From IMG/VR virus record IMGVR_UViG_3300044641_005651: 60,574 bases of DNA. One strand, given 5' to 3'. The position numbers and the translations under genes are program-made. The DNA is from an uncultured virus (IMG/VR IMGVR_UViG_3300044641_005651). Its lineage: Duplodnaviria > Heunggongvirae > Uroviricota > Caudoviricetes. Position 1 is the stretch's first letter; every line of letters begins with the position of its first letter. Positions 4,363-58,033 of the stretch are shown here, one piece after another. Below the pieces are notes generated by a model that was given only the letters and a program-made list of their open reading frames with translations, made no database searches and was not told the origin of the DNA.

Positions 4363-4984
4363 AAAAGAAACAAAAGGAGATCGCAAGGTAATCGAGCGTC
4401 TAACAATAGTAGGAGATACTAAGGTTAGATTCGTGGGAGAAGTTCTTCCTCGTTACGTTTACTGGGTAATCACTAAAGAGGGAAAGAAGATGCCGGTAGA
4501 ATGCCTACAGTTCAACCGTCAGTCAGAATCTTTTGACAGTAATGCAAAAGACCCAATGAAGGAACTACCTCCAGATATCTATTCTGAAAAGCCACAGTTC
4601 GCTTATGTCTGTAACGTACTAGACAGAAGCGATGGTAAAGTCAAGCTATTCGACGTCAAAGCAACTATTTACAAGCAAATTGTAGACTATGCTCGTAACC
4701 CAGAATATGGTAACCCCGCAGACCCAGAAAAGGGATACGACATCACAATCAAGAAAGAGAAGACAGGTCCTCTTCCTCAGAACGTAAAGTATACCTGTGT
4801 ACCTGCTAGAACAAGCAAGGCACTGACTGCAGAAGAACGTGCTATTGAGCTTTACGAAGTATCAAAGATGTATAAGCGCCCAACTTACGAAGAGCAGAAG
4901 AAGTGGCTACTAGACAACACCATGTTGTTTAGCACTATAACTGACAATTCTCTATCACCAGAAGGAGTAGAGGATCTTAATTAA
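4340..4984 (+). CDS. D11: Probable ssDNA-binding/recombination protein (T5 D11-like)
   Basis: VRFVGEVLPRYVYW, GYDITIKKEKTGPLPQNVKY, acidic tail; strong AAGGAG SD; synteny. Confidence 0.8.
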   Translation: MVAWDQAKKETKGDRKVIERLTIVGDTKVRFVGEVLPRYVYWVITKEGKKMPVECLQFNRQSESFDSNAKDPMKELPPDIYSEKPQFAYVCNVLDRSDGKVKLFDVKATIYKQIVDYARNPEYGNPADPEKGYDITIKKEKTGPLPQNVKYTCVPARTSKALTAEERAIELYEVSKMYKRPTYEEQKKWLLDNTMLFSTITDNSLSPEGVEDLN

Positions 4985-5838
4985 TGGGTAAGGTATCAAA
5001 ACTAGCAGAGATGATACCTAACGGTAAACCCTCTGTAACACCTGACCCAAATAATCCGGGGCAGATGCACATAAACATTGAAGAACTGCAGAAACACAAC
5101 CTGTTTTTTGCAACTCCATGTTATGGTGGACAGCTAACAGATCAGTTTTTCTTATCAATGTTTAGGCTTACTCAAGCTCTAAATCATTACAAGATTAATT
5201 ACAGAATCACTACTCTTAGAAATGAGAGCCTAGTGCCTAGAGCTAGAAATATCTTAACAGCAATGTTTCTAGAGAGTGATTGCTCTCACCTAATGTTCAT
5301 AGATGCAGATATTGAATTCGAGCCAGATTCAGTAATCAGAATGTTAGCAATGAATAAGCCATTAATTGCAGCAGCTTATCCTAAGAAAACAGTTGATTGG
5401 GAGAGTGTAAGAAGAGCAGCTATCGAAGGAAAAGAGGATATCTCTAAGTACAGTGCTCAATATGCTATAAATCTTAAGTTCAAAGATCCTAGAACTAGAG
5501 AACTTAATGTAGATAACGGAGCTATAGAAGTAATGGATGCTTCTACCGGATTCTTCATGGTGCAAAGAGTTGTCTTTGACAAGATGATTCAAGCATATCC
5601 AGAACTACATTATAAAAATGATAGTTCTATTGATCCTAAGTTCAATCCATTCTGTTATTCTTTCTTCGATACTATTCATGATCCAGATGATAACAGATAC
5701 TTATCAGAAGACTATACTTTCTGTCGTAGATGGCAGAAAATAGGCGGTAAGATTTGGCTTGATCCTAGCACTAGACTAAGTCACGTAGGGGCATTCACTT
5801 TCCCTGGAGACGTGAGCAGGATATTTGACAGACGTTAA
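4984..5838 (+). CDS. GT-A fold glycosyltransferase-like protein
   Basis: ATPCYGG, ESLVPRARN, DxD motif FIDADI, LSEDYTFC. Confidence 0.75.
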   Translation: MGKVSKLAEMIPNGKPSVTPDPNNPGQMHINIEELQKHNLFFATPCYGGQLTDQFFLSMFRLTQALNHYKINYRITTLRNESLVPRARNILTAMFLESDCSHLMFIDADIEFEPDSVIRMLAMNKPLIAAAYPKKTVDWESVRRAAIEGKEDISKYSAQYAINLKFKDPRTRELNVDNGAIEVMDASTGFFMVQRVVFDKMIQAYPELHYKNDSSIDPKFNPFCYSFFDTIHDPDDNRYLSEDYTFCRRWQKIGGKIWLDPSTRLSHVGAFTFPGDVSRIFDRR

Positions 5839-6140
5839 CCGCGTTGTGTCTCTCCGAGACAGCGTGGGAGTTCTTGTAATAATACTCCCACGTTAACCGC
5901 GTTGTGTCTCTCCGAGACAGCGTGGGAGTTCTTGTAATAATACTCCCACGTTAACCGCGTTATGTCTCTCCGAGACGGCGTGGGAGCTCTTGTAATAAGA
6001 CACAAGACTCCCACGTATTCGTTATGTCTCTCCGAGACCTCTTAGTTGCAGCGTTCATACGTTATGCCTCTCCGAGGCAAGCTGAAGACGAATGTGCCAT
6101 ATAGGGAACCGCGGTCACATATATGCAACAACGTCTCATA
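5832..6140. repeat. Intergenic tandem hairpin repeat (58-bp period, decaying to five short hairpin cores)
   Basis: Units start at 5832, 5890, 5948; core cgtt(g/a)tgYctctccgagRc occurs five times; second stem cgtgggag..ctcccacg occurs three times. Confidence 0.93.
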
Positions 6141-6173
6141 CGTTATTTATAGCATATTATAGAAAGTTTTTCA

Positions 6174-7133
6174 ATGTTTAAAATCTTACACAGTGCAGAT
6201 TGGCACATACTCCTACATAAGAAGAAAGTTCCTTGGGAATGGCAGTCTAATCGTTTCCAAGAGTTTTTCAACCATCTTCTTGAGCTAGAGAAGGGATGCA
6301 CCGCGCACATAATCGCAGGAGATGTCTTTGATAAGAAACCAGAACCTGATGAAGTAGCTCTTTTCTTATCCTATATCCATAGGGTTAAGACTAAGACATT
6401 CATTATTCCTGGTAATCATGAGGCTACCTCTAAGGGTGAATCTTTTTTAAAGCACTTCACTGGAGAGTATAAAATCAATAATCCCCAAGTAGAGATTATC
6501 TGCTATAACGCTGCGCGCAGCCTGGAAGGAGTTAACTTTCAGTTCTTTCCCTATGGCGAGATGCAACGAGATAACCTGCCTAGACCTCTTCCTGATCACA
6601 TCCTAGTCACACACATACGTGGAGAGGTGCCTCCGCATATTACAGCTGAGTATGATTTTGAAAGGTTACGTCCTTGGAAGCTAGTTCTTTGTGGAGACTT
6701 ACATCATAACCATCAGTATCGAGATATGCCTGTGTATTATCCAGGTAGTCCGATGAATGTAAGTTTTGACCGTAATGAGGAAAGAGAATATGGTGTGAAT
6801 ATTGTAGAAGGAACTCTTGATGACTACAGGGTTAAGTTTGTCCCCTTAGACTTGCCTAAATTAGTTAGACGTCGTATCCGCTCCGGAGAAGAGATGACGC
6901 CTAGTGCAAGAGATCACATTGTATACGAAGTAGTTGGAAGTGTAGACGAGTTGGCGCGCGTTGAGGGGTCTGCACTCTTAGATAAGAAGATCGCGCATAG
7001 GGCAGACGAAGAGAGCACCTTAGATCTCACCGGGTTATCTCTAGTCGAAGAGCTGGAGAGTTATTTGCGTCATCAGCGAATAGAAGATGTAGAAGGTATC
7101 TCTGCCACATTTAAAAAGTTAGGAATCTCATGA
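6174..7133 (+). CDS. D12: Recombination nuclease, Mre11/SbcD-like (T5 D12-like)
   Basis: Metallophosphoesterase motifs ADWH, AGDVFD, PGNHE, GDLH, YPGSP. Confidence 0.92.
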   Translation: MFKILHSADWHILLHKKKVPWEWQSNRFQEFFNHLLELEKGCTAHIIAGDVFDKKPEPDEVALFLSYIHRVKTKTFIIPGNHEATSKGESFLKHFTGEYKINNPQVEIICYNAARSLEGVNFQFFPYGEMQRDNLPRPLPDHILVTHIRGEVPPHITAEYDFERLRPWKLVLCGDLHHNHQYRDMPVYYPGSPMNVSFDRNEEREYGVNIVEGTLDDYRVKFVPLDLPKLVRRRIRSGEEMTPSARDHIVYEVVGSVDELARVEGSALLDKKIAHRADEESTLDLTGLSLVEELESYLRHQRIEDVEGISATFKKLGIS

Positions 7134-8956
7134 ATATTCAACTTAGAAGCTTAGCATGGTCTAATATGTTTAGCTATGGCGCAGGCAATCAGCTAAACCT
7201 GGAGAGGGCTAAGATCTCTCAGCTCTCTGGCGTAAATGGTAATGGTAAGACTAGTATTTCTCTAATCTTACAAGAGTTGCTCTACAGTAAGAACATCAAG
7301 GGTATTAAAAAAGGCGATATCCTTAATAGACATACTACTGCTCGTGGTTGGTCTGGGCAGCTTAGTTTCAAGGTAGACAAAGACCTCTATGATCTCACGG
7401 TAGAGCGTGTAGGAGATTCTAGTAAGGTCAAGCTGTTAAAAAACGGACAAGATATCTCTGAACATAAGATTCCTGATACCTATAAAAAGCTACACACTAT
7501 TCTTGGTATGACTTTTGAGGTATTCTCTCAGCTAACCTATCAGAGTAGTACCGATCTCTTAGACTTCATCAAGGCTACAGATACTAATAGAAAGAAGTTC
7601 TTAATCAACCTCTTTGGGCTTGAGAAGTATCTTGAGATTGGTGACGTCTTGAAGATAAAGATGACTGATGTCGAACAAGAACACGCAACCTTACAGGGTG
7701 AACTCTCAGGAGTTAAAAAGTTTTTAGAAAGCACTACTATTACTGATAAGAAAACGCTCATACCAGTTCCTCCTTATGACACGCAAGCAGAAACTAAGCG
7801 GGCTCATCTAAAAGTTCAGCTAGACGACTTTAACGCTCAGTGCATCAAGATTGATAAGAACCTAATGCTTATCAAGGAGCGTGATGGATTGAAATTTGAT
7901 GTAAGTGTCGAAAAGCCTAGCCAAGACGTAACGCTTTCAGACAAGATAAAAGCAGCAGATACTGCTATCACCTTAAAAACTCAGAAAGTCAAAGACCTAG
8001 AGCGTAACAAGTCTAGTATTGATACCAGTGATTCTTGCTATGCTTGCGGTCAGAAGATTGATAACTCTAAAGGCGTAGAGTTAAAAAATCAGATAGATTT
8101 AGAGATAGGCAAACTTAACTTTGAACTAACAGAACTTAAGGCGGATCTGAAGTCGCACAGAGAGCAGGAGAATAGAGAGAGTATAGCCTATCGTAATTGG
8201 ATAACTAATCAAAAAGCTATCGAGAGATTTGAACAGCTCTCACAACTGATAGATAAGTCAATTCCCTTTGTTTACCCAGACTATGCAGCTATCAAAACAG
8301 ACTACGACAATACAACAAAATATTTAAATGATTTGCAAAACTCTATAGAAGAGGCTAATAGATATAACAATCAAGTTCATATCCACAATACTAGAGTAGA
8401 AACCCTAGTAGAGCAACGTAGAGATTTTTTAGCTAGACAAGAGTTGTTAGAGAATAGTATAATAAATCTTAAAATAAAGATTAATCATTTGAACATTCTT
8501 AAAAAAGCGTTTTCTACCTCAGGCATCGTTGCTTTTAAGCTAGAAAACCTTACTAAGCAGTTAGAGAGCACGATTAACTATTATCTCGCTGAACTCTCTG
8601 ACGGACAGTTCCAGATTATCTTCAGACTCAATGGTGAAAAACTCAATATCGTTGTTGCTAATAACGGTAAAGAAACACCCATCGAAACAGTTTCAGGTGG
8701 CGAATTTGGTAGAATTCAAACCTCTATCCTACTTGCCATAAGGAATATTTTATCTAAAATTGGTGGTAGTAAAGTAAATATACTATTCCTAGACGAAATT
8801 ACAGGTGTCTTAGACGCAGCAGGAAAAGAAAGACTAGTAGATATCTTAATGCAGGAAGATGCTAATACATTCTTTATCTCTCACGACTTTGAGCACCCAC
8901 TTATCGAAAAAATTCAAATCGTAAAACAAAACAACATATCTAAAATAGGAGAATAA
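7130..8956 (+). CDS. D13: Recombination ATPase, Rad50/SbcC-like (T5 D13-like)
   Basis: GVNGNGKT, coiled coil with zinc hook CYAC, signature VSGGE, FLDE, ISH. Confidence 0.93.
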   Translation: MNIQLRSLAWSNMFSYGAGNQLNLERAKISQLSGVNGNGKTSISLILQELLYSKNIKGIKKGDILNRHTTARGWSGQLSFKVDKDLYDLTVERVGDSSKVKLLKNGQDISEHKIPDTYKKLHTILGMTFEVFSQLTYQSSTDLLDFIKATDTNRKKFLINLFGLEKYLEIGDVLKIKMTDVEQEHATLQGELSGVKKFLESTTITDKKTLIPVPPYDTQAETKRAHLKVQLDDFNAQCIKIDKNLMLIKERDGLKFDVSVEKPSQDVTLSDKIKAADTAITLKTQKVKDLERNKSSIDTSDSCYACGQKIDNSKGVELKNQIDLEIGKLNFELTELKADLKSHREQENRESIAYRNWITNQKAIERFEQLSQLIDKSIPFVYPDYAAIKTDYDNTTKYLNDLQNSIEEANRYNNQVHIHNTRVETLVEQRRDFLARQELLENSIINLKIKINHLNILKKAFSTSGIVAFKLENLTKQLESTINYYLAELSDGQFQIIFRLNGEKLNIVVANNGKETPIETVSGGEFGRIQTSILLAIRNILSKIGGSKVNILFLDEITGVLDAAGKERLVDILMQEDANTFFISHDFEHPLIEKIQIVKQNNISKIGE

Positions 8957-8957
8957 T

Positions 8958-11084
8958 ATGATTGCACCAGGCACAAAGCCAGTTCACTTTTATCTTAGTG
9001 AAAAATTCAAAAAAGACTTAAAAGCAGCTACAGAACAGTGGGGTTTCGGAGGTCTATCCGCCTTTACTTTCTATAGAACATACTCTAGAAAGAAAGCAAA
9101 CGGAACCATGGAAACATGGGCAGACTGCGTTATCAGAGTAATAGAAGGAATGTTTACCATTCTTAAGACTCACGCTAAGCTATCACACATTCCTTGGAAT
9201 GATAAAAAGGCTGCAAAGCACGCTGAAGAAGCTGCTACTCGTATGTTTGAATTTAAATGGCTACCACCTGGACGCGGTCTATGGATGATGGGAACTCCCT
9301 TTGTGTGGGAAAAAGGCGGTGCCTGCTTAAATAACTGTGCATTCGTTTCCACCGAGAATATCGAAACCGAGCTATCTAAGCCTTTCGCATTCCTGATGGA
9401 TATGTCAATGGTTGGAGTAGGTGTAGGATTTGATACTAAGGGCGCTGATAGACTACCTGTCAACATGCCATCTGGAAAGACTGTAGAGACCGTAGTAGTA
9501 GACGATTCAAGAGAAGGATGGGTAGAAGCTATCTCTTGCCTAATCGATTCATATCTTGAGCCGGATTCTAATCCAGTAGAGATTAATACATCTCTAGTTC
9601 GTCCATACGGAGATCCTATTGCCGGATTTGGTGGAGTAGCTTCTGGACCTGAACCTCTAGAACAAGGCTTCTATGGTATTCGCGATGTTCTTGAAAAGAG
9701 AGCCATGAGCGATGATAATCTACTATCTTCTACAGATATAGTAGATATTATGAACCTAATTGGTAAAATAGTAGTCGCTGGAAATGTTCGCAGAACAGCA
9801 GAGATCGCCTTTGCAGAGCCTGACGATCAAGACTTTATTGAGATGAAGCGTTGGGATAAGTTTGGAGTAGAGACTGGCAGTATCGCTCCACCAGAGCTAA
9901 AAGCTATATCAGAAGAAGAATACGAGAGATACAATAATGACTGGAATGCACGTGGTGAAATCGCTAAGAAATATGCTAACTATGAATGGTCTTATAAATT
10001 TGGGGGTTGGCGTTGGGCTTCTAATAATTCTCTTTTTGCCTATGTTGGAATGGATTATACTGATGCGGCTAAGAGTATTGCAGTAAATGGTGAGCCAGGT
10101 TTTGCTTGGCTTGACAATATGCAAAAATATGGTCGTATGAAAGACGGAGTTAACAATAAAGACTACCGAGTTCGTGGTGGTAATCCTTGCCTCGAGCAGA
10201 GTCTTGAGCCATATGAACTATGCTGTCTAGTAGAAAATTTCCCTGCTAAGCACAAAGATTACTGGGATTTCCAAAGAACCTTGAAGTTCTCTTATATGTA
10301 TGCTAAGACAGTAACCTTAATGGCTACACACTGGTCAGAGACTAATGCTGTTATTACTCGCAACCGTAGAATTGGTTGCTCTCAGAGTGGTATTCAAACA
10401 GCAATGTTAAAGTTTGGTAGACACAAGTATTTCGATCAGTTCTGCGACAGAGCCTATACATATATTCAATATGTAGATCAGAAATATGCTGAATGGCTTG
10501 GTGTTCCAAAGAGTATAAAAACTACTTCGGTAAAGCCATCTGGAACAGTATCTCTAGTAGCAGGCGAGCTACCAGGCATTCACTACGCCGAAAGCGAGAA
10601 CTATTATAGAACAGTTCGAGTAGCTGCAAACTCTCCATTCGTACCACTCTTACAAGAAGCAGGTTACAGAATTGAGCCTGCAGTATCAGATCCTACTAGA
10701 ACAGTCGTAGTATATTTCCCTGTTCTACTAAGAGAAGGAACTATTTCTAATAAGAATATCTCAATCTGGGAACAGTTTGCAAACGCAGTAGATATGCAAC
10801 ACTATTGGGCAGACAATCAAGTATCTATTACTATTACGTTTAATCAGTCAGAAGCTGATCAGATTGCAAGAGCCCTATCTGCATTTGATAACAGGCTAAA
10901 GGGAGTATCTCTTCTACCAGTATCAGATCACGGATACGCTCAAGCTCCTTACACTACTGCACCTAAGGATGAGTTAGAGAAGTATGCGGCTACACTAAAG
11001 CCAATTAACTTCGATAGCCTAACCAAAGAAGGCGATAACGCAGATGCTAATAAGTTCTGCGATGGAGATAGTTGCGTAATATGA
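8958..11084 (+). CDS. nrdJ: Class II adenosylcobalamin-dependent ribonucleotide reductase (monomeric type)
   Basis: YRTYSR, PPGRGLW, NNCAF, VVAGNVRRTAE, GNPCLEQ, ELCCLVE, KPSGT, C-terminal CDGDSC. Confidence 0.93.
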   Translation: MIAPGTKPVHFYLSEKFKKDLKAATEQWGFGGLSAFTFYRTYSRKKANGTMETWADCVIRVIEGMFTILKTHAKLSHIPWNDKKAAKHAEEAATRMFEFKWLPPGRGLWMMGTPFVWEKGGACLNNCAFVSTENIETELSKPFAFLMDMSMVGVGVGFDTKGADRLPVNMPSGKTVETVVVDDSREGWVEAISCLIDSYLEPDSNPVEINTSLVRPYGDPIAGFGGVASGPEPLEQGFYGIRDVLEKRAMSDDNLLSSTDIVDIMNLIGKIVVAGNVRRTAEIAFAEPDDQDFIEMKRWDKFGVETGSIAPPELKAISEEEYERYNNDWNARGEIAKKYANYEWSYKFGGWRWASNNSLFAYVGMDYTDAAKSIAVNGEPGFAWLDNMQKYGRMKDGVNNKDYRVRGGNPCLEQSLEPYELCCLVENFPAKHKDYWDFQRTLKFSYMYAKTVTLMATHWSETNAVITRNRRIGCSQSGIQTAMLKFGRHKYFDQFCDRAYTYIQYVDQKYAEWLGVPKSIKTTSVKPSGTVSLVAGELPGIHYAESENYYRTVRVAANSPFVPLLQEAGYRIEPAVSDPTRTVVVYFPVLLREGTISNKNISIWEQFANAVDMQHYWADNQVSITITFNQSEADQIARALSAFDNRLKGVSLLPVSDHGYAQAPYTTAPKDELEKYAATLKPINFDSLTKEGDNADANKFCDGDSCVI

Positions 11085-11308
11085 AAATCGTAGTATATGG
11101 AAAGGACAATTGTCCATACTGTGTAGCCGCTAAGGAGTGGTTAAACGCTAGGTGTCTAGCGTTTAACTACGTTGATGTGCTAAAAGACCTTAATCCTGGA
11201 GAACTAGCATCCTTAAAAACACAGTATAAAATGAATACAGTTCCGATCGTTGTAATTAACGACGAACTGATCGGTGGATATTCTAACTTACAAAGGTTAG
11301 AACTATAA
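11081..11308 (+). CDS. Glutaredoxin
   Basis: CPYC, TVP, IGGY; ATGA overlap with the nrdJ stop. Confidence 0.92.
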   Translation: MKIVVYGKDNCPYCVAAKEWLNARCLAFNYVDVLKDLNPGELASLKTQYKMNTVPIVVINDELIGGYSNLQRLEL

Positions 11309-11327
11309 GAAAGAGAGACCACATGAA

Positions 11328-11774
11328 GTGGCTAGTAAAAGTAAAACAAAAGGCTCTGCTTTTGAAGCTAAAATTAGAGACATTCTTACAGAAGAACTGA
11401 ATATAAAATTTGAAAGGATGCCGTTAAGTGGGTCCATATCTTACCTAAAAGGTGATTTATGGGTTCCATCTGATACGGCATCTTTTCCTTATACAATAGA
11501 ATGTAAACATTATGCAGAGTTGGAGTTTAATAACTTACTTACTGCTAAGACTACCGACATACTAGAATTCTGGAAACAGGCTATGGAAGAAGCTAAGGTA
11601 ATGAATAAAAAACCTTTACTTATCTTTAGATGGAATAGAAGTAAAGATTTTATATGTTGGGATTCAGATATAGAGCTAGAGCACCAAATAGAATATAAAG
11701 TATTTGGTTATAAGTTTAAGATGGGTCTTTTATCTGATTGGCTAGATAAGTTTAAACTTACTAAAGCTTCTTGA
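11328..11774 (+). CDS. D14: Holliday junction resolvase-like PD-(D/E)xK nuclease (T5 D14-like)
   Basis: KGSAFE, RMPLSG, KGD, IECKH. Confidence 0.85.
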   Translation: MASKSKTKGSAFEAKIRDILTEELNIKFERMPLSGSISYLKGDLWVPSDTASFPYTIECKHYAELEFNNLLTAKTTDILEFWKQAMEEAKVMNKKPLLIFRWNRSKDFICWDSDIELEHQIEYKVFGYKFKMGLLSDWLDKFKLTKAS

Positions 11775-11799
11775 CCTGACTACAATAATACGGTATAAT
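11771..11799 (+). promoter_or_regulatory. Sigma70-type promoter for the D15-dut-thyX unit
   Basis: TTGACC(11771)-17 bp-TATAAT(11794). Confidence 0.75.
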
Positions 11800-11805
11800 A
11801 TACAA

Positions 11806-12687
11806 ATGATGGAACAAGATACAAAAGGTTGGAATGATCTTTCAGAATTAGAATCATACATTCCTCAAAAACCTGTTGTAAGTGGAAAAAATATACTTAT
11901 TTGCGATGGCAATAACTTAGGGTATAGATACTTACAGCGAAGAAATTACAATAACTTCAAGGATGATTATTGCAGAACAGTAGAGAGCCTAGCTAAAAGC
12001 TACGGCTGCAAGGATATTATAGTAGCCTTTGATTTTGGTAAAAGCTATTATCGAACTAACTTTTATCCTGAGTATAAAGCTACTCGTAAAAAGCCTCAAG
12101 ACGAAAAAGAGAAAGAGCACTACGATCAGTTTTTTGCTTGTCTAAACGACGTAGCAGATACTATACCTTTCTCAGTAACTAAGTTTAGAGGAGTAGAAGC
12201 AGACGATCTGATAACCTATGCTGTTCTAAAAAATAGAAACACAGCAGATCATATTTGGGTTATTTCTAGCGATAGAGACATATATCAACTCCTAGACAAG
12301 AATATCAGCATTTTCAATATTTTCTCTAGAAAAGAGATTACCGTAGATTCTCTATATGAAAAACTACAAGTAACTCCTAAAGAGTATATGATATCTAGAA
12401 TTATCTCTGGAGATAGTGGAGATAATATCGTAGGTATTGAAGGTATAGGCGAAAAGCGTGCTACTGCTATAGCTAGAGAGCATAAAACTTTTACTGCTCT
12501 ACTAGAGGCCTTACCACTAAAAGGTAGATCTAAGTATATTCAAAATCTAAACGTAGGCAAAGATATACTAATTCGTAATGAGAAGTTAATTAACCTTATC
12601 AAATACAATGAAGAAGCTATCCTATCAGGAAAAGGCGAAGAGATAAATTTGGAGACGTTAAATGCAATCACAACCTTTAACCATTAA
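11806..12687 (+). CDS. D15: 5'-3' exonuclease / flap endonuclease (T5 D15-like)
   Basis: DGNNL, YPEYKATR, EADD, SSDRD, GDSGDNIVGIEGIGEKRA. Confidence 0.94.
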   Translation: MMEQDTKGWNDLSELESYIPQKPVVSGKNILICDGNNLGYRYLQRRNYNNFKDDYCRTVESLAKSYGCKDIIVAFDFGKSYYRTNFYPEYKATRKKPQDEKEKEHYDQFFACLNDVADTIPFSVTKFRGVEADDLITYAVLKNRNTADHIWVISSDRDIYQLLDKNISIFNIFSRKEITVDSLYEKLQVTPKEYMISRIISGDSGDNIVGIEGIGEKRATAIAREHKTFTALLEALPLKGRSKYIQNLNVGKDILIRNEKLINLIKYNEEAILSGKGEEINLETLNAITTFNH

Positions 12688-13141
12688 TGTTAAGGTAGAA
12701 AAAACCGGCAAGGCTCACGTCTTGGAGAAGAAGCTAGACATTAGTTGGGATATCGCTAGACATTTCGATTTTGATGCTGGATATGACGTTAGAGCCGCTA
12801 TCTACGAACCTTTAACTATATTTAGTAGAAAGTTTGAAGTAATTCCTATAGGTCTGAAATTTGAAATTCAAGATCCTTATTGGGAGATACAAGTCAGATC
12901 CAGAAGTGGCTTAGCGGCTAAACATGGCGTATTCGTACTGAACAGCCCTGGAACTGTAGATTATGGATATAGACAAGAGGTTCAAGTAATTCTATTTAAT
13001 AACGGAAGTAAGGATTTCGTAGTGAATCCGGGAGATAGAATTGCACAGATGTGTGTAAGACCTGTTCCTCAAGTATCTTTCACCTACGGACAGGTAGAAG
13101 AAACTATACGTGGAGGATTTGGTAGCTCCGGTGTATCCTAA
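12662..13141 (+). CDS. dut: Trimeric dUTPase
   Basis: AGYD, RSRSGLA, GTVDYGYR, GDRIAQ, RGGFGSSG. Confidence 0.95.
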   Translation: MQSQPLTINVKVEKTGKAHVLEKKLDISWDIARHFDFDAGYDVRAAIYEPLTIFSRKFEVIPIGLKFEIQDPYWEIQVRSRSGLAAKHGVFVLNSPGTVDYGYRQEVQVILFNNGSKDFVVNPGDRIAQMCVRPVPQVSFTYGQVEETIRGGFGSSGVS

Positions 13142-13319
13142 TAAATATTTTGATTGGTTCTTATTAGTAATAAGTATATCAATGACCATATTTGTGTATG
13201 TTGCACATGGGCCATATTTCTACTTATTTATGAGCCTAGTATATATCGTAACAATGTTTTTACTAATCAAAGCCTTGTTCGATTTTAATAATAGAATGAA
13301 AAGGTGGTTAAAATTCTAA
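13110..13319 (+). CDS. Small two-TM membrane protein
   Basis: Two hydrophobic segments and a basic C-terminus; TAATG coupling to thyX. Confidence 0.6.
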   Translation: MEDLVAPVYPNKYFDWFLLVISISMTIFVYVAHGPYFYLFMSLVYIVTMFLLIKALFDFNNRMKRWLKF

Positions 13320-13999
13320 TGATTGTTAGACTAATAAGTTACTCTCAACCTACCGACGAACTATATAATCAAGGTATAGTAGATGCTCAGGAATTAGTTG
13401 CATATTGCGCTAGAGTATCTAATCCTACAAATCAATTTAATACCGAAACTAGTGAAAAACTTATCAGATATCTCATTAAGAATAAGCACTGGTCGCCTTT
13501 AGAGATGGTAAATGTATGCCTAGAGGTTGAAACTACTAGAGACATAGCTCATCAAATAATTCGTCATAAGAGTTATGCCTTTCAAGAGTTCTCACAAAGA
13601 TATGCAGAACCTAAAGAACTAGGAAATATGTTTGAATTTAGGGAAACTAGATTTCAAGATACTAAGAATAGGCAAAAATCTATAGACCTAGATCCTGCAG
13701 ACCCTAGCCAAGTAGACATAGATAAAACTTGGCAAGAATATCAACGAGCTATTGCATACTTAGCTGGAGAATATTATAAGTGGGCTGTAAGCAATGGAAT
13801 TGCTAAGGAGCAAGCTAGAGCAATACTTCCAGAAGGTTTAACTAAAACTAGACTATATATGAATGGAAGTCTACGTAGTTGGATACATTATATAGAATTG
13901 CGTAGTGATAATGGAACCCAAAAAGAGCATATGTTAATTGCTAAAGAATGTGCTAAAGTAATTAATCAAGTCTTTCCAATGATGAAAACCCCGGAATAA
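13319..13999 (+). CDS. thyX: FAD-dependent thymidylate synthase
   Basis: HWSPLE, RHKSYAFQEFSQRY (ThyX motif), KEQARAILP, TQKEH; ATG at 13319 preferred over GTG at 13304. Confidence 0.94.
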   Translation: MIVRLISYSQPTDELYNQGIVDAQELVAYCARVSNPTNQFNTETSEKLIRYLIKNKHWSPLEMVNVCLEVETTRDIAHQIIRHKSYAFQEFSQRYAEPKELGNMFEFRETRFQDTKNRQKSIDLDPADPSQVDIDKTWQEYQRAIAYLAGEYYKWAVSNGIAKEQARAILPEGLTKTRLYMNGSLRSWIHYIELRSDNGTQKEHMLIAKECAKVINQVFPMMKTPE

Positions 14000-14015
14000 C
14001 TTCCGGGGTTTTTTT
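13985..14015. terminator. Bidirectional intrinsic terminator between convergent early and late blocks
   Basis: aaaaccccggaa-taac-ttccggggtttt followed by further T; A-tract on the left. Confidence 0.88.
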
Positions 14016-14268
14016 ATTTAGTCTTCTTTTTAGACCTAATATTTTTAGCAGGTTTAGGCAATTTATTAGACGATGTAGATTCCACAGAACCCATTGGTAA
14101 TCCTAGAGTCGGTTTACCGCTAAGTCTGTAATAAGTGCTATCAACTTTAAATTGCTGACCATACTGTTTAGGAACGGTTGGATGGTTCTTACCGTAATCC
14201 AATCCGCCATGTGGGTATGGATGGCCTTCTAATTTAACTTTAGGTTTCTTTATTTTTTTGGTAGCCAT
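14014..14268 (-). CDS. Small Lys-rich protein
   Basis: 84 aa, basic termini, motif TYYRLSGKPTLGLPMG. Confidence 0.75.
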   Translation of the reverse strand: MATKKIKKPKVKLEGHPYPHGGLDYGKNHPTVPKQYGQQFKVDSTYYRLSGKPTLGLPMGSVESTSSNKLPKPAKNIRSKKKTK

Positions 14269-14269
14269 T

Positions 14270-14479
14270 TTACTTAGAACTATTTACTGGCTTTTCTTGG
14301 CCATAGTCTAAATGTCTTCTAGATTTATCGGTTTTTACACCTGCATTAATGCCGTTATATGTAGGTTTAAGAGTATCATTAACCTCATCGACATCGCGTC
14401 CAGTAACATTTCCGTAAGTGCTACGGTTAGCCATAATTCTACCAGACCCTAACGGTTTCGCCATATTAGTTTCTCGCAC
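14270..14479 (-). CDS. Small hydrophilic protein (start probably at the MAKPLG ATG)
   Basis: Tightly packed ORF in the small-gene cluster. Confidence 0.65.
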   Translation of the reverse strand: MRETNMAKPLGSGRIMANRSTYGNVTGRDVDEVNDTLKPTYNGINAGVKTDKSRRHLDYGQEKPVNSSK

Positions 14480-14750
14480 TATTATTTGGAGCCATATTAG
14501 GAACGGTGATCTTCTTTAGAGGTGACCCTGAGTGAGAAGAAGCTGGTCTATCTGGTCCGCCCATTGGATTGCCAAGTGTTGGGCCGCCAGATACGCGATA
14601 ATATGTTTCTGCATTCTTTAGATCATACTTAGTTGTACCAGTAGCTGTTCCACTGCCTGGCTTGGTACTATTAGAATCTGTACCGCCTACAGGGGTTAGT
14701 TTATGCTTCATTAGCATTGGCTTACCGCTTGTTTCGTTATTCATGCCCAT
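14466..14750 (-). CDS. Small Gly/Thr/Pro-rich protein
   Basis: SD AAGGAG before ATG at 14750; motif TYYRVSGGPTLGNPMG. Confidence 0.75.
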   Translation of the reverse strand: MGMNNETSGKPMLMKHKLTPVGGTDSNSTKPGSGTATGTTKYDLKNAETYYRVSGGPTLGNPMGGPDRPASSHSGSPLKKITVPNMAPNNSARN

Positions 14751-14760
14751 GTTAATCTCC

Positions 14761-14880
14761 TTATTTCTTTGCACCCTGCTTCTTCATAATCATTTTCTGA
14801 AGTGCAGGAGGAAGTTTCTTTTGTTTAGCGGTTAGACCCGCATCTTTTTTCATTGTATCTTTTTTTGAAGCTTTTGCCAT
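14761..14880 (-). CDS. 39-aa Lys-rich protein missing from the ORF track
   Basis: Translated by hand: MAKASKKDTMKKDAGLTAKQKKLPPALQKMIMKKQGAKK; SD AAGGA; its stop overlaps the next gene's SD. Confidence 0.75.
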   Translation of the reverse strand: MAKASKKDTMKKDAGLTAKQKKLPPALQKMIMKKQGAKK

Positions 14881-14930
14881 TTTAGATTTCCTTATAGTTG
14901 AGCTCTCTTGAAGAAAACTAGGAGCTATAC

Positions 14931-15239
14931 TCATTTTTTTACAATATCATCTAGCTTTATTTCAAGCTGCATTTCTTCTTGCTCTGACATTTCGTCTGAC
15001 TCTTCTGAGTCCTCTTCTTCACTTTCTGAATTAGCTGATTCCATCTCTTGATTAGAAAATTTCATATAGCTATAAACAGCACTGACATAGTAGTCTAGTT
15101 TAGAGAATTTATCTTGAAGCCAAGCAGGTAATTGTTGTTCATCTTTTATCATAGGAAGAAGTTCTTGAGAAAATACAATAAGTTTTCTTAGTGTATTTTT
15201 AGCCATTTCTCCTTCATAATCATATTCTTTATTTTTCAT
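14931..15239 (-). CDS. Small protein with acidic tail, possibly internal virion protein
   Basis: [24 protein letters not shown] resembles a domain recalled from aquatic phage proteins. Confidence 0.7.
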
Positions 15240-15382
15240 TTTTTAGCCTTCTTAGGTTTATTAGACTTACCTGCACTAGATAAAGCAATGGCTACTGCTT
15301 GTTTTTGCGGGTAGCCTTCTTTTACCATTTTACTTATGTTTGAAGAAATTGTTTTTTGTGACTTACCTTTTTTTAGTGGCAT
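15236..15382 (-). CDS. 48-aa basic phage protein missing from the ORF track
   Basis: [60 protein letters not shown] overlap; QAVAIALS family is common in phages. Confidence 0.85.
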
Positions 15383-15435: not shown

Positions 15436-17412
15436 TTAATTTGTGAAAGCTCTTATTAATACTCGTAGTCCAGCAGGCACTGAGCTGTCAGTATACTGTA
15501 TTGTATCATTCGCTATGTTGTAGACAAAATCTACTCCATTAACTTGATCGATTCCGTTAAGAGAGCTGTATACATAGCTTAAGCTAGCAGGACTATTTGC
15601 GCTTACTCTAACAAAGAAGCAATTGCTAGTTCCGGAGCTTACATTAGTATTATATCTAGGTTGAAGATTTAACCCCAAAGCGCCATCTACATAGGCTTTA
15701 GTAGCAGCATTACTAGCACTAGTAGGAGGTCCAGACAGAGTTAGTTCACCCGTCATAGTATCTCCTGCTTTAGATACCTTAGCGTTTACGTTACTTTGAA
15801 CGGAGTTCAAATTAGCGTTTAAACTGGTATAAGTATTAAAATCATTAGCTAAAGCAGCTAAATATGTAGTATAATCATTACCTCTAGCAGAAAGTAGAGT
15901 AGCTCCATCATTGGCTAAGGCAGCTAAATATGTTACGTGGTCATTCTGACGAGCCGTTAAGAGTGTGGCTCCGTCATTGGCTAAGGCAGCTAAATATGTT
16001 ACGTGGTCATTCTGACGAGCCGTTAAGAGTGTGGCTCCGTCATTGGCTAAGGCAGCTAAATACGTTACGTGGTCATTCTGACGAGCAGAAAGTAGAGTAG
16101 CTCCATCATTTGCAGCTAATGTAGAATAAGTATTCCAGTCATTACTACGCGCAGTTAGTAAGGTAGCTCCATCATTAGCGGCTAAAGTAGAATATGTAGA
16201 CCAATCATTAGCTTGATAGTCTCTAGTTCTAGCTATGTCATCAGCTGATGTTAAAGTACCTACTCCAACTCTAAACTTAGAGACAGATGCAGAAGCATAA
16301 ATTAAATTAGCTAATAATGCGCTACTAGTTCCTGCTACTTGAATACCAGAGCCTTCAGCCAATGCATCTGTGCTATTCCAATTTATAATTATAGTTTTAT
16401 CTTCGGTAGAGATATTTGATACATTTGCAGTAACGCTATCTCCTAGTATAAATAAATTACCTTCGATTACTAAATCTCTAGCAAAAGTTTTATTACTTGT
16501 AAATTTTACTGTAGAATCATTGATAATAGCATTGTAAGTATTATAATCATTACTTCTTGCAGTTAATAAAGTAGAATGATCGTTACCTTGCGCACTATTC
16601 CACGTTGCAAGGTCATTAGCACGCGCGCTCAATAAGGTAGAGTGATCATTGCCTTGCGCGCTATTCCATGTTGCAAGGTCATTAGCACGCGCAGATAAAA
16701 GAGTAGAGTGATCATTGCCCTGTGCGCTATTCCACGTTGTAAGGTCATTAGCACGCGCGGATAGAAGAGTAGAGTGATCGTTACCACGTGCTGTGGCTAA
16801 AGTAACTCCATCGTTTGCTTGAGCAGCTAGATAAGTATTATAGTCATTAGCAGCAATTTGTAGATAAGTATTATAATCATTAGCAAAATACCAATTATTA
16901 GCAGTTGCTACGTTAGCCACAGCGTTAGGAGAAGCACTTAAATTCAAAATATCTAAGTTACTTGCTAAAAGAACATCTGCGCCTGCAAAAATACCACCTC
17001 TAACGTTTAATATATAAGTATTAGATGTGGGTAATATATTAGAAGTAGTTCTTCCAATACTAATACTGTTACTAGAGATTAATAAACCAGGTCCGCCAGC
17101 AGTTGATTCTATGCTAAATACATTTTCTGGTCTAGTTAGAACTGTTCTGGAATATACTCCATATTTGAAGAGCTCAATATCATTTACAAAATAATTAGTA
17201 ATTGAAAATTTACTATTGGCAGTATAGCCATAAGCATTAGCGTTTGAATCAAACCAGCTATAGAAACTGCCTACATTAGCAGAATTAACACTGATATTAG
17301 AGAATATATTTGACCCGGCTAGATGTCTAGATTCAATAGCAGCATTAGCTATTTGAGAAGAACCAATTACATTACTTCCAATTACTGAACTTGTTATTTT
17401 AGTTAATGCCAT
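15436..17412 (-). CDS. Tail fibre-like protein with 11/22-residue ND repeats
   Basis: MALTKITSSVI N-terminus, two repeat stalks, KAGDTMTG and AATKAYVD fibre motifs. Confidence 0.75.
   Translation of the reverse strand: MALTKITSSVIGSNVIGSSQIANAAIESRHLAGSNIFSNISVNSANVGSFYSWFDSNANAYGYTANSKFSITNYFVNDIELFKYGVYSRTVLTRPENVFSIESTAGGPGLLISSNSISIGRTTSNILPTSNTYILNVRGGIFAGADVLLASNLDILNLSASPNAVANVATANNWYFANDYNTYLQIAANDYNTYLAAQANDGVTLATARGNDHSTLLSARANDLTTWNSAQGNDHSTLLSARANDLATWNSAQGNDHSTLLSARANDLATWNSAQGNDHSTLLTARSNDYNTYNAIINDSTVKFTSNKTFARDLVIEGNLFILGDSVTANVSNISTEDKTIIINWNSTDALAEGSGIQVAGTSSALLANLIYASASVSKFRVGVGTLTSADDIARTRDYQANDWSTYSTLAANDGATLLTARSNDWNTYSTLAANDGATLLSARQNDHVTYLAALANDGATLLTARQNDHVTYLAALANDGATLLTARQNDHVTYLAALANDGATLLSARGNDYTTYLAALANDFNTYTSLNANLNSVQSNVNAKVSKAGDTMTGELTLSGPPTSASNAATKAYVDGALGLNLQPRYNTNVSSGTSNCFFVRVSANSPASLSYVYSSLNGIDQVNGVDFVYNIANDTIQYTDSSVPAGLRVLIRAFTN
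15903..16100 (-). repeat. 66-bp coding tandem repeat (x3)
   Basis: Encodes ATLL(T/S)ARQNDHVTYLAALANDG; nearly identical at DNA level. Confidence 0.9.
16571..16790 (-). repeat. 66-bp coding tandem repeat (x3+)
   Basis: Encodes GNDHSTLLSARANDL(A/T)TWNSAQ. Confidence 0.9.
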
Positions 17413-24413: not shown

Positions 24414-24969
24414 AGCTTGATACATTAATTACATCACCTTTTTCGTGATTAATAGTATTTACATCCGCACTAATAATCTGACCGCCAACTCTCAACATAC
24501 CATAGTTTAAAGGTATAGAATTACTGCTGTCAACTGTATTTATTATACCATCGAAAGCATCATTATTTCTTCTATCCTGATCTGTTATACCTATATCAGA
24601 TCTTTTTGGCTTAGGCATAATAGCTTGTATAACTGCGCCTAGAGCAAAGCTAATAACTGTTCCTACTATTGCTCTAGTAAAAGCTTGAGCAAAAGTAGCG
24701 CTTGTTATTGACCCAAGGAGTTCACTATTTCCACAAACTAAAGGAACTACGAAACAACCTGTTTGAGTTTCTGGTATTTCATCCTGCATTAACCAACTAT
24801 CTGGAAAGGGTTTGAAATCTTGGGTAAGAAGAAGTGTTTTTGTTTTATCTATGGCAGGATAAAAGTTTTGTATATAAGAAGTAAGATCAGATACTTTTTT
24901 AATATTTATAGCTACTTGAGCTATATCTTCTGGTTGTAATAAGGACTTATGAAAACGAATATTATACAT
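24406..24969 (-). CDS. Tail assembly protein, lambda gpI-like (Ubl domain), paralog 2
   Basis: VVPLVCG, hydrophobic middle, AFD..INT..IPLNYGMLRVGGQIIS. Confidence 0.75.
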   Translation of the reverse strand: MYNIRFHKSLLQPEDIAQVAINIKKVSDLTSYIQNFYPAIDKTKTLLLTQDFKPFPDSWLMQDEIPETQTGCFVVPLVCGNSELLGSITSATFAQAFTRAIVGTVISFALGAVIQAIMPKPKRSDIGITDQDRRNNDAFDGIINTVDSSNSIPLNYGMLRVGGQIISADVNTINHEKGDVINVSSYV

Positions 24970-34335: not shown

Positions 34336-34336
34336 T

Positions 34337-34690
34337 CTATCTCCTTGATTTTATTTCTCTTTGTTTCTCATAATATTTTGCATATTCAGTAATAATATAT
34401 GTTAGCAGTTCAAATACCTCTCGTCTATGCTCTATTTCGTAGAAATCAAAGATGTCTCCTATACCAGAAAATTCTTTGCCTAACCAAAGTCCGTTCATAC
34501 CTTCAATTTTATCTGGTAAAATACTAAATATTAAAAGAGCCTGCTGAGTTTCTAAAGATAAATCCCCTGGTTCAACAGGAATATCTTCCTCAACAGGCTC
34601 TTTGCCCATTTGTCGACATATTTCAAAATATTGTTCTTTAGTAATGTTACCCCCAGAAAACGTTTCCTGAAGGTAACTTTTTAGTTTTTT
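34337..34690 (-). CDS. Tail assembly chaperone T portion (frameshift product of a G-T fusion)
   Basis: The -1 frame is open from the slippery site (KLKSYLQETFSGGNITKEQYFEICRQ) into ORF 34337..34609. Confidence 0.82.
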   Translation of the reverse strand, partial: KKLKSYLQETFSGGNITKEQYFEICRQMGKEPVEEDIPVEPGDLSLETQQALLIFSILPDKIEGMNGLWLGKEFSGIGDIFDFYEIEHRREVFELLTYIITEYAKYYEKQREIKSRR

Positions 34691-35115
34691 AGATCAGTTT
34701 CTCTTTTCTTAACAGAGAATGCTTCTAGATCATTTACAGTATCAGTAATAAACTGATCGAAAATACTACTATTTTTTAGTAGTTCAAGAGCTTCTTCAGT
34801 AGAATACGGTAACTCATCTTCTGCGTTCATTGCTGATATATCTACCGGTAGCAACTTCGGAAGATGCTTAACTTTAAGACCCTTCCAGCCTTTAATTACG
34901 CGTTCAGCGTAAGCCTCAACAAACTTGTCATTATCCACCTCCTCTTCTCTTTGGCGGGTGCGTTTGTTGAATTTGTACACTAGTGCCTGGTTTCTAATTT
35001 TCATTAAGTCTTCGCGAGGAACATAGCTAATAGTAACTACGAAACCTTCTGCTTCTGGAAATTCTACATCAATAGTCTTGTCTCCAGTGACAAGTAGTGA
35101 TTTAATTTTAGACAT
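34681..35115 (-). CDS. Tail assembly chaperone (gpG-like)
   Basis: Between tube and TMP genes; IKGWKGL motif; SD GAGG. Confidence 0.85.
   Translation of the reverse strand: MSKIKSLLVTGDKTIDVEFPEAEGFVVTISYVPREDLMKIRNQALVYKFNKRTRQREEEVDNDKFVEAYAERVIKGWKGLKVKHLPKLLPVDISAMNAEDELPYSTEEALELLKNSSIFDQFITDTVNDLEAFSVKKRETDLKN
34684..34690 (-). promoter_or_regulatory. -1 programmed frameshift slippery site A AAA AAC
   Basis: CTA AAA AAC TAA at the end of the chaperone gene. Confidence 0.85.
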
Positions 35116-35119
35116 TTTT

Positions 35120-35244
35120 CCTCATAATTTAAAAATAAAGTGGCGCTTACCGTTTGATCGACGCACGATCGGATGAGGGGATCCCGAAAGATTGTCGCGG
35201 TAAGCGCCTTTGGTATTAAGTTAACTAGCCCCTCAACTAGTTAA
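35120..35244 (-). ncRNA. Candidate structured cis-regulatory RNA / attenuator
   Basis: 11-bp GC stem enclosing two hairpins, an upstream 8-bp hairpin, loop complementarity, and a U-rich tail. Confidence 0.55.
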
Positions 35245-35247
35245 ATG

Positions 35248-36504: not shown

Positions 36505-36558
36505 AATTAACTCCTTAATATAACCCTATGAGTTAGGCGGTCCCTCTTATATTTTATA

Positions 36559-36587
36559 AGTATAACACCACTTACTATAGGGCGCAA
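36559..36587 (-). promoter_or_regulatory. Sigma70-type promoter for tail genes
   Basis: TTGCGC-17 bp-TATACT with extended TG and AT-rich upstream. Confidence 0.7.
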
Positions 36588-36599
36588 ATAATAAAAATT

Positions 36600-53155: not shown

Positions 53156-53221
53156 TTTTTCCTCTATAGGAAATATACTATTTTTAATAGCACTAGACTA
53201 CAAAAAATATAAAGAGTGTCC

Positions 53222-54488: not shown

Positions 54489-54495
54489 ACTAAAA

Positions 54496-56709: not shown

Positions 56710-56718
56710 AAAATCCTC

Positions 56719-58029: not shown

Positions 58030-58033
58030 AATT

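What the first reader, a model, noticed from the sequence alone, without database searches (positions are those of the whole stretch)
5832..6140. Covarying hairpin array with five C-GGA-G triloops on the minus strand
Seen: stem GTCTC-tcc-GAGAC four times, and a fifth copy TGCCTC-tcc-GAGGCA with a compensatory double change. The second hairpin cgtgggag..ctcccacg gains an extra inner stem (tcttgt/acaaga) in copy 3. Further pairings gttgca(6045)/tgcaac(6124) and gagac(6034)/gtctc(6133) are possible. On the minus strand each small loop is C(GGA)G. Known: C-GNA-G triloops are unusually stable DNA hairpins (N4 virion RNAP promoters, ssDNA origins), and repeated loop GGA marks CsrA/RsmA-sponge RNAs, though the preferred ANGGA context is absent here. 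Inference: a selected structure acting as a replication/recombination signal or a protein-sponge RNA.
Basis: partly seen in the sequence, partly recalled or inferred. Interest (0 to 1): 0.72.

Follow-up and report, generated by a model that had tools for sequence, protein, structure and literature searches.

The report
Promoter-led DNA mini-hairpin cassette in phages
The hairpin array is the expanded tail of a conserved cassette in uncultured T5-like aquatic phages, made of a promoter followed by tiny hairpins whose loops fit single-stranded DNA rather than RNA, and it may mark where these viruses start copying their genome.

Summary
The array is real. It is the amplified distal end (1-3 copies among near-identical contigs) of a ~170-nt cassette in an uncultured T5-like phage, probably of Alphaproteobacteria. 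The cassette has a leftward sigma70-type promoter (6174-6146), C-GNA-G mini-hairpins and a short end motif at a near-fixed distance. Relatives at 52-89% protein identity keep it with covarying stems. Their loops are GGA, GTA, GCA, GAA, GGCA or GTTA, so the rule is the DNA mini-hairpin rule (GNA/GNNA), not CsrA's GGA. There is no global RNA fold. In 13 of 74 element promoters a hairpin also lies upstream of the start site (0 of 95 controls). All six sites of known polarity use the same genome strand. These phages lack T5's origin-binding protein. Best reading (0.45): a transcription-opened, strand-specific ssDNA priming or origin signal, like a T4 R-loop origin with G4/ssiA-type hairpins. Against it: only 5 of 16 protein-selected contigs carry it, one complete genome lacks it, there is no skew switch, and nothing is shown experimentally. 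Rivals are a small RNA gene and a recombination or REP-like cassette. A CsrA sponge is not supported. No match in Rfam or in my paper searches.

The parts
6146..6174 (-). Leftward sigma70-type promoter: -35 TTGAAA (6174-6169, overlapping the A of the D12 start codon), 17-nt spacer ending in TG-C, -10 TATAAA (6151-6146); predicted start near 6139
   Evidence: Sequence. The same TTGNNN-17-[RTGC]TAWWW design heads the element in relatives. It occurs at 2 sites in the 122.6-kb composite genome with the strict pattern and at 4 with a looser one; both strict sites head hairpin clusters. Activity not tested.
6080..6139 (-). Promoter-proximal segment of the core cassette (contains GTTGCA, which can pair with TGCAAC at 6050-6045)
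   Evidence: Conserved in L083, L085, L086 and L088 without covariation. Marine relatives have two AGCTNNTGAACA-like direct repeats around a first hairpin here instead.
6065..6079 (-). Core mini-hairpin A, 6-bp stem, C(GGA)G loop
   Evidence: stem differs in L085/L086 (GCAAT-GGA-ATTGC) with the loop kept
6026..6038 (-). Core mini-hairpin B, GTCTC-GGA-GAGAC, followed by the conserved flank ATAACG
   Evidence: The same stem and flank occur in distant marine relatives with GGA or GTA loops
5999..6005 (-). 3' end motif TTGTGTC, matching the YTRYGYC end motif of relatives; marks the end of the core cassette
   Evidence: Alignments. In L085/L086 and the marine type the cassette stops here and abuts the convergent gene. 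Promoter-to-motif distance is 148-155 nt in 6 of 8 motif hits that had a promoter (two of the six are one locus in near-identical contigs).
5948..6015 (-). Lineage-specific distal addition: duplicate of hairpin B plus flank (5964-5976) and an inverted copy that makes the long GTGGGAG/CTCCCAC hairpin (5979-6015)
   Evidence: Present in the window, L082, L083 and L088; absent from L085, L086 and L006
5832..5947 (-). Two extra, identical 58-nt tandem units, each with a 6-bp C(GGA)G hairpin (5847-5861, 5905-5919) and a long hairpin; copy number is polymorphic
4984..5838 (+). Left neighbour, glycosyltransferase-like gene (phrog_1574, weak Anp1); its stop codon overlaps the last unit. Context only.
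6174..7133 (+). Right neighbour, SbcD-like T5 D12 homologue (followed by SbcC-like D13). Context only; in many relatives other genes lie between the cassette and D12.

Best explanation
The cassette is a strand-specific single-stranded-DNA signal for starting or priming phage DNA synthesis. Shown: a conserved promoter, a ~135-nt downstream segment with 1-3 covarying GNA/GNNA mini-hairpins and an end motif, all on the strand opposite to the replication genes. Inferred: host RNA polymerase transcribes leftward from the promoter, antisense to the replication operon. This frees the minus strand, as an R-loop or through supercoil-driven extrusion; the strand may also be exposed by strand displacement. 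The minus strand folds into SSB-resistant mini-hairpins that hold the bubble open and serve as loading or priming marks for the phage DnaB-like helicase and DnaG-like primase. The RNA, trimmed by RNase H or the D15 flap nuclease, primes leftward synthesis. The tandem array in this window is a by-product: slippage and template switching at the cassette's distal end. It would stand in for T5's origin-binding-protein route, which these phages lack.
For: (1) The loop rule is the DNA one. In 26 marine representatives HP1 is GCA 13, GTA 11, GGCA 2; HP2 is GGA 14, GTA 10, GTTA 2; HP3 is GTA 18, GGA 8. All close with C-G, and the 130 stem cells not fixed by the search are all Watson-Crick, with no G-T. 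PMC13037366 (passages) reports that only GNA of 64 triloops form DNA mini-hairpins, that GTTA and GABA-type tetraloops are tolerated, that an RNA counterpart melts at 39 C against 76.5 C, and that such hairpins occur at G4/St-1 priming sites and RSF1010 ssiA and bind SSB poorly. (2) Covariation: 98.6% of 492 cells pair and 8 of 12 pairs change on both sides, with 0 of 500 shuffles as high and slid controls at 53.5% or less. RNAalifold finds no fold beyond the mini-hairpins. (3) In 13 of 74 distinct element promoters a C-GN(N)A-G hairpin lies inside the promoter, upstream of any transcript from it, on the same strand; 0 of 95 control promoters have one (3-4 independent designs). (4) The phages' own terminator-like hairpins do not use this loop: 1 of 69, and that one is an element hairpin, against 8 GNRA. 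(5) All six distinct sites with known genome polarity use the strand opposite to the replication genes; three of them lie antisense inside rightward operons. T5's nicks are annotated on that strand, and its polymerase as strand-displacing from nicks. (6) T5's origin-binding protein T5.108 hits Vibrio phage phi 3 but 0 of 30 aquatic sequences, including three CheckV-complete genomes. RNase H, primase, DnaB and D10 are present in the composite genome. (7) T4 oriF/oriG are a promoter plus ~100 bp downstream, act through R-loops, and T4 has at least five origins (PMC3016281 passages). (8) The distal hairpin unit is amplified independently at both cassettes of this lineage (2 to 4 or more copies at the second site) and partly duplicated in L196/L226.
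Against: Nothing functional is shown. The cassette was found in only 5 of 16 contigs chosen by protein homology alone; 15 of the 16 are partial, and the complete but more distant G003 has none. It lies between GT and D12 in 25 of 77 distinct D12 loci. There is no consistent shift in fourfold-site skew across the cassette. The segment is 40-60% GC, not an AT-rich unwinding element like T4's. Some copies end in an intrinsic terminator (G005, L006, G016-type, G006-type), which suits a discrete small RNA. Three of the six polarity sites lie among leftward genes, where a promoter cassette would point that way anyway. The flanking-wobble bias to the minus strand is weak (20 against 9). DnaA boxes are not supported (0 of 26 perfect). 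T5 and phi 3 have no such cluster in the 120 kb and 100 kb scanned.
Confidence: 0.45

Rival explanations
1. A small non-coding RNA gene (about 135-250 nt) with 1-3 paralogues per genome, acting as RNA, for example a protein decoy or an antisense attenuator of the convergent operon; the C-GNA-G loops would be protein-binding sites in RNA.
For: Conserved promoter and near-fixed length to an end motif. Intrinsic terminators follow some copies. These phages carry other RNA genes: 28 tRNAs, tmRNA and GOLLD. Patchy presence suits an accessory gene.
Against: No conserved global fold. The loops follow the DNA rule, not GNRA or UNCG, and the stems lack G-U. The same hairpins occur upstream of the start site. 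The phages' terminator hairpins do not use GNA triloops. No Rfam match.
Confidence: 0.2
2. A recombination or mobility cassette: a PeSL-like promoter-stem-loop linker for swapping accessory genes, or a domesticated REP-like ssDNA substrate of an HUH (Y1) nuclease whose fixed strand reflects lagging-strand targeting.
For: Different genes abut the same end motif in close relatives (L155, L162, L167), and the GT-D12 interval around it varies from 176 to 2661 nt. The cassette occupies at least six sites. Tandem GTCTC-GTA-GAGAC repeats with a similar flank surround an IS200-like Y1 transposase gene in a Bacteroidota contig (L336).
Against: Y1 transposase was found in 0 of 35 records while the control rang in 7 of 14. 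There are 1-3 copies per genome, against about 50 PeSLs (PMC2839356 passages). There is no array of sites between accessory genes. Position is stable within clades. At GT-D12 the promoter points away from any sense gene. The cellular matches are at chance level overall (96 found, about 139 expected by my arithmetic) and were selected by the pattern itself.
Confidence: 0.15
3. N4-type hairpin promoters read from the minus (template) strand, driving rightward transcription into D12.
For: N4 virion RNA polymerase binds a GCGGAGC mini-hairpin (PMC13037366); all seven hairpins of the composite genome's two cassettes have GGA loops.
Against: No phage RNA polymerase was found (0 of 28 records, although the control did not ring; PHROG and Pfam scans). 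The longest ORF in the window is 1659 aa. A canonical promoter points the other way, and the hairpins are not placed before genes.
Confidence: 0.04
4. CsrA/RsmA-sponge RNA.
For: Five GGA loops downstream of a promoter in this window; some relatives have ACGGA.
Against: GGA is not conserved. The loops are triloops without the ANGGA context in the window. The host is probably alphaproteobacterial, and no CsrA was found in 28 phage records or the Caulobacter control.
Confidence: 0.03

Closest known systems
Phage T4 R-loop origins oriF (uvsY) and oriG (34)
   Same: A promoter plus about 100 bp of downstream DNA; several origins per genome; the displaced non-template strand is the loading platform (PMC3016281, passages).
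   Different: T4 origins use an AT-rich unwinding element with no shared motif and MotA promoters. Here the segment is GC-richer, carries conserved covarying mini-hairpins and an end motif, and always uses one genome strand. R-loop formation was not tested here.
Primase-dependent single-strand initiation signals: phage G4/St-1/alpha3 complementary-strand origins and RSF1010 ssiA
   Same: GNA/GNNA mini-hairpins on one ssDNA strand, including a GTTA loop as in St-1/alpha3 (PMC13037366, passages).
   Different: Those lie in ssDNA phages or a plasmid and have no upstream sigma70 promoter (recalled). Here the element is in a 120-170 kb dsDNA siphovirus, and primase recognition was not tested.
PeSL cassettes of T4-type phages RB49/phi1
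   Same: Intergenic sigma70-like promoter plus stem-loop, next to variable accessory genes (PMC2839356, abstract and passages).
   Different: PeSLs number about 50 per genome, end in a Shine-Dalgarno sequence and start codon, and have G/C-tract terminator stems. This cassette has 1-3 copies, is often antisense to its neighbours and has GNA triloops.
REP-like repeats of Y1 HUH transposases (TnpA/RAYT)
   Same: Short, strand-specific ssDNA hairpins; a very similar hairpin plus flank surrounds a Y1 gene in L336.
   Different: No Y1 gene in the phages, low copy number, a fixed promoter, and no 5' GT[AG]G foot before the small stems (PMC6006769, passages).
T5 injection-stop (iss) repeat region
   Same: Non-coding T5-family DNA with palindromes; isolated GNA hairpins at T5 9906(-), 10086(+) and 10246(-).
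   Different: iss lies in the terminal repeat, spans about 1.2 kb and holds DnaA boxes (bioRxiv 10.1101/866236, passages). This cassette is internal, about 170 nt long, has no perfect DnaA box and shows no sequence likeness to iss by inspection.
N4 virion RNA polymerase promoters
   Same: C-GGA-G hairpin on one strand.
   Different: No virion RNA polymerase found; hairpins are clustered downstream of a host-type promoter.

Membership tests
CsrB/RsmZ-type sponge RNA | Repeated, conserved GGA in loops | tested here: not met
   GTA, GCA, GAA, GGCA and GTTA replace GGA; 9 of 26 representatives have none
CsrB/RsmZ-type sponge RNA | ANGGA context (recalled) | tested here: not met
   All five window loops read TCGGA
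CsrB/RsmZ-type sponge RNA | CsrA in the host and binding to the RNA | not testable with these tools
   Host not known; alpha-type tmRNA; CsrA absent from the Caulobacter control and from 28 phage records
T4-type R-loop origin | Promoter directly upstream of a ~100-bp cis element | tested here: met
   (sequence match only)
T4-type R-loop origin | AT-rich downstream unwinding element | tested here: not met
   GC 0.45-0.61 downstream of the start in marine copies and 0.40-0.63 in the window; AT-rich only in the G006 and G007 types
T4-type R-loop origin | Persistent RNA-DNA hybrid that primes synthesis; supports plasmid replication | not testable with these tools
   Needs infection or in vitro work
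T4-type R-loop origin | Compositional shift at the origin | tested here: inconclusive
   No consistent shift in fourfold-site skew in 7 element-bearing or 12 other genomes
Single-strand initiation signal (G4 ori / ssiA type) | Strand-specific GNA/GNNA mini-hairpins | tested here: met
Single-strand initiation signal (G4 ori / ssiA type) | Primase initiates at a defined site on the folded strand | not testable with these tools
   A DnaG-like primase is encoded; its specificity is unknown to me
REP/REPtron | Linked Y1 HUH gene | tested here: not met
   0 of 35 records; control rang
REP/REPtron | Many dispersed copies | tested here: not met
   1-3 per genome
PeSL cassette | Promoter plus stem-loop ending in SD/ATG of a downstream gene, tens of copies | tested here: not met
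   Antisense at three sites; 1-3 copies; a sense gene follows in the G006, G016 and G018 types
Retron msr-msd | Linked reverse transcriptase; DNA product complementary to the RNA | tested here: not met
   RVT_1 in 0 of 28 records, control rang; the GNA loops are on the transcript-sense strand
N4 virion RNAP promoter | Phage-encoded virion RNA polymerase | tested here: inconclusive
   0 of 28 records, but the control did not ring; none seen in the family scans
Known Rfam RNA family | Covariance-model match | tested here: not met
   None in the window at gathering score; none over the element in 7 loci at E up to 5

The most novel reading that the evidence does not exclude
A large clade of uncultured aquatic T5-like phages without T5's origin-binding protein uses a portable, one-strand origin cassette. 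Antisense transcription by the host polymerase exposes the minus strand, which folds into DNA mini-hairpins that load the phage helicase and primase. It would join a T4-like R-loop origin with G4/ssiA-like priming hairpins, and give a sequence-defined, clonable origin for T5-like phages.
Probability: 0.35. Interest if true: 0.8.

Novelty: new variant of a known kind. Interest (0 to 1): 0.62.

Why it matters
T5 origins are described only as lying near the centre of the genome in the paper I read (bioRxiv 10.1101/866236, passages); that they are not defined at sequence level is my recollection. A 170-nt cassette with a promoter, covarying hairpins and an end motif can be cloned and mutated, so initiation in T5-like phages becomes directly testable. 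The family also gives a clear comparative case of selection on ssDNA rather than RNA folding in a dsDNA phage. That bears on defences reported to sense origin hairpins (OLD; bioRxiv 10.64898/2026.07.10.737580, passages) and perhaps on the neighbouring SbcCD-like nuclease. If it is instead an RNA or a recombination cassette, it is still an undescribed conserved element of abundant aquatic phages.

Tried and rejected
Rfam: no match. blastn of the region against cultured phages: no match. RNA runs: 21 RNA runs hold the stretch. The 4 laid are unstranded contigs with flat depth; one bridges GT-array-D12 and no separate deep short contig appears. This cannot show strand, ends or level, so it is used neither for nor against a small RNA. 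GC/AT skew: cumulative skew follows gene direction, and fourfold-site skew shows no consistent switch. DnaA boxes: rejected (0 of 26 perfect; 0.54 against 0.19 per element at one mismatch). Integron-like array: the end motif occurs once per cassette, not between accessory genes. T5 nick site: no invariant GCGC in the alignment, and the T5.153 homologue (nicking enzyme by recollection) is found in G004, G006 and G032 but not in the composite genome. UNCG tetraloops on the plus strand: the register shift breaks the stems (by inspection). Retron, Y1, CsrA and T7-type RNAP genes: not found. Three candidate copies were dropped because the hairpins lie inside 115-120-codon ORFs (G018 39.3 kb, G021 27 kb, G036 17 kb); one of them (L299) is still among the 40 representatives counted. 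G016, G017, G018 and G038 were left out of the polarity count because their marker genes give no safe polarity (the ligase gene conflicts in G016). The D12 tree is the quick tree only. ViennaRNA energies do not separate the two strands or model the GNA bonus. Paper searches for the motifs found two unrelated papers; the topical searches listed nothing on this element.

Full report
Setting. The window is part of an uncultured T5-like phage. On + it carries polA, a D10-type helicase, SSB, a glycosyltransferase-like gene (GT), SbcD/SbcC-like D12/D13, RNR, a resolvase, D15, dUTPase and ThyX; the structural genes are on -. The nearest cultured D13 homologues are Vibrio phages at 33% identity, among them phi 3 of the Demerecviridae. 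Contig G002 overlaps the first 10,141 nt at 99.99% and extends 62 kb leftward, giving a 122.6-kb composite with T5's gene layout. That part holds 28 tRNAs, GOLLD and a permuted alpha-type tmRNA, which points to an alphaproteobacterial host (inference).

Observation. Near-identical contigs hold 1, 2 or 3 units or rearranged partial units, and RNA-run contigs skip 58 or 116 nt, so this is real length polymorphism. Alignment with freshwater relatives shows a core running from a leftward promoter (6174-6146) through hairpins at 6065-6079 and 6026-6038 to an end motif at 6005-5999. Everything left of that is a lineage-specific duplicate of the second hairpin with an inverted copy, then amplified.

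The family. Of 77 distinct D12 loci with both flanking genes, 25 have a hairpin cluster between GT and D12, in three lineages of a quick tree. Pattern scans added 22, 73, 13 and 94 viral loci (some are chance hits) and a truncated metagenome scan. Where marker genes could be read in the last two scans, the copies with a promoter and two or more hairpins lay next to T5-like genes. From the loci held at that point, 94 distinct elements collapsed to 40 at 90% identity (one is a probable coding coincidence). The marine type is: promoter, AGCTNNTGAACA box, HP1, second box, HP2, HP3, then ACGYCA-N3-YTRYGYC abutting the stop codon of whichever gene converges on it. In 41 aligned copies the three hairpins pair in 98.6% of 492 cells and 8 of 12 pairs change on both sides, above all 500 shuffles and all slid controls (related sequences inflate this). 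RNAalifold finds only mini-hairpins. The promoter-to-end-motif distance is 148-155 nt in 6 of 8 hits with a promoter, even where the interior differs. The composite genome has a second cassette at G002 7480-7200, with its own expanding 30-nt hairpin unit (2 copies; 4 or more in L331). The complete G032 has three cassettes, one of them weak, and the complete G036 has one.

DNA or RNA. Among 26 marine representatives the loops are GNA triloops with all middle bases but A, plus GGCA and GTTA. All close with C-G, and none of the 130 stem cells left free by the search is a wobble. GAA loops occur in other copies. This is the rule for DNA mini-hairpins in PMC13037366 (passages read), which also places them at G4/St-1 priming sites, RSF1010 ssiA and the N4 promoter. 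Two internal controls point the same way. Thirteen of 74 element promoters carry such a hairpin inside the promoter, upstream of the start site, against 0 of 95 other promoters of the same pattern; these are 3-4 independent designs. Only 1 of 69 terminator-like hairpins in these contigs has a GNA triloop, and it belongs to an element. I put selection on the folded DNA minus strand at about 0.75.

Polarity and replication genes. Six distinct sites have a known polarity: GT-D12; between RNR and PhoH in G009; upstream of ligase in G007/G032; beyond D15 in G006/G007/G032; the early region of the composite; and G032 25.7 kb (weak). All use the strand opposite to the replication genes, and the first three are antisense inside rightward operons. 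Four contigs of unsure polarity and three coding coincidences were left out. In T5 this is the strand annotated with the nicks. T5 and phi 3 encode an origin-binding protein; none of 30 aquatic sequences does, including three complete genomes. Neither T5 (first 120 kb) nor phi 3 (first 100 kb) has a hairpin cluster.

Mechanism. Shown: the anatomy, the covariation, the loop rule, the strand and the absence of Obp. Inferred: transcription opens the cassette, the minus strand folds, phage helicase and primase load, and the RNA or the primase primes synthesis. The model borrows from T4 oriF/oriG (PMC3016281, passages) and from ssi-type signals. Confidence 0.45.

Against it. Only 5 of 16 contigs chosen by protein homology alone carry a cassette (G005, G006, G007, G009, G015). 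Ten partial ones and the complete, more distant G003, which also lacks Obp, do not. There is no skew switch and no AT-rich unwinding element in most copies. Some copies have terminators. A small RNA (0.2) and a recombination or REP-like cassette (0.15) remain open. The latter draws on gene swaps at the end motif and on look-alike repeats around a Y1 transposase in L336, but no Y1 gene was found in 35 records. PeSLs (PMC2839356, abstract and passages; a lead from an earlier scan note) differ in number and layout. A CsrA sponge is not supported.

Novelty. No match in Rfam, in cultured phage DNA, in motif searches of papers, in topical searches or in earlier scan notes by sequence or place. Papers were read as passages only: PMC13037366, PMC6006769, PMC2839356, PMC3016281, 10.1101/866236 and 10.64898/2026.07.10.737580. 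No supplements were read, and supplementary motif lists from phage structured-RNA screens could contain this element. The ANGGA consensus, the scarcity of CsrA in Alphaproteobacteria, the likeness of D10 to UvsW and the role of T5.153 are recalled, not tested. Verdict: a real, conserved and apparently undescribed cassette built from known kinds of parts; new variant of a known kind; interest 0.62.

Noticed in passing
G002 7480-7190 (L249, minus strand): Second cassette of the same phage: same promoter type, 30-nt unit with a C(GGA)G hairpin, 2 copies here and 4 or more in L331.
   Followed up: yes
G002 24210-24668 (L250:4210-4668, -): GOLLD RNA (Rfam RF02032, 205 bits) inside the tRNA cluster.
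   Followed up: no
G002 46419-46768 (L251:6419-6768, +): Permuted alpha-type tmRNA next to a ribosomal protein S21 gene; used only as a host clue.
   Followed up: partly
G002 11618-11691 (L249, -): tRNA with a CTA (amber) anticodon, although the phage's genes appear to read normally with table 11.
   Followed up: no
G002 33062-37958 (L250): Cluster of CsgF, CsgG, FecR-domain and CHASE2-adenylate/guanylate cyclase genes in a phage.
   Followed up: no
window 51590-59344; G002 8796-15376, 43334-44167, 57782-58789: Many host-like genes: SBP_bac_5, TctA, Ldh_2, fatty-acid hydroxylase, PstS-like, Bax1-I, Fpg glycosylase, UvdE.
   Followed up: no
window 15841-16210 and about 16560-16780: 66-bp tandem repeats inside the 658-aa ORF 15436-17412 (no Pfam or PHROG match).
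   Followed up: no
L336:1529-1987 and flanks: Bacteroidota IS200-like Y1 gene (by its motifs probably Quentin subclass 1.2, described as generally lacking terminal structures) flanked by arrays of C(GTA)G hairpin repeats in opposite orientations. Similar repeats occur in L374, L408, L399, L388, L346 and L581.
   Followed up: partly
T5 AY543070 9906(-), 10086(+), 10246(-), 3880(+), 6378(-): Five of T5's six distinct C-GNA/GNNA-G hairpins with stems of 5 bp or more lie in or just beyond the left terminal repeat, three at the iss region; the two minus-strand ones there share a TGATTGC flank.
   Followed up: partly
G002 630-760 and 2043-2173: 131-bp direct repeat at 97.7% identity near the left end of the contig.
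   Followed up: no
window 5863-5892, 5921-5950, 5979-6015: The long hairpins start GTGGGAG (GTAGGAG in L001), which recalls Pseudomonas REP feet (recalled). The alignment suggests a local inverted duplication instead.
   Followed up: partly
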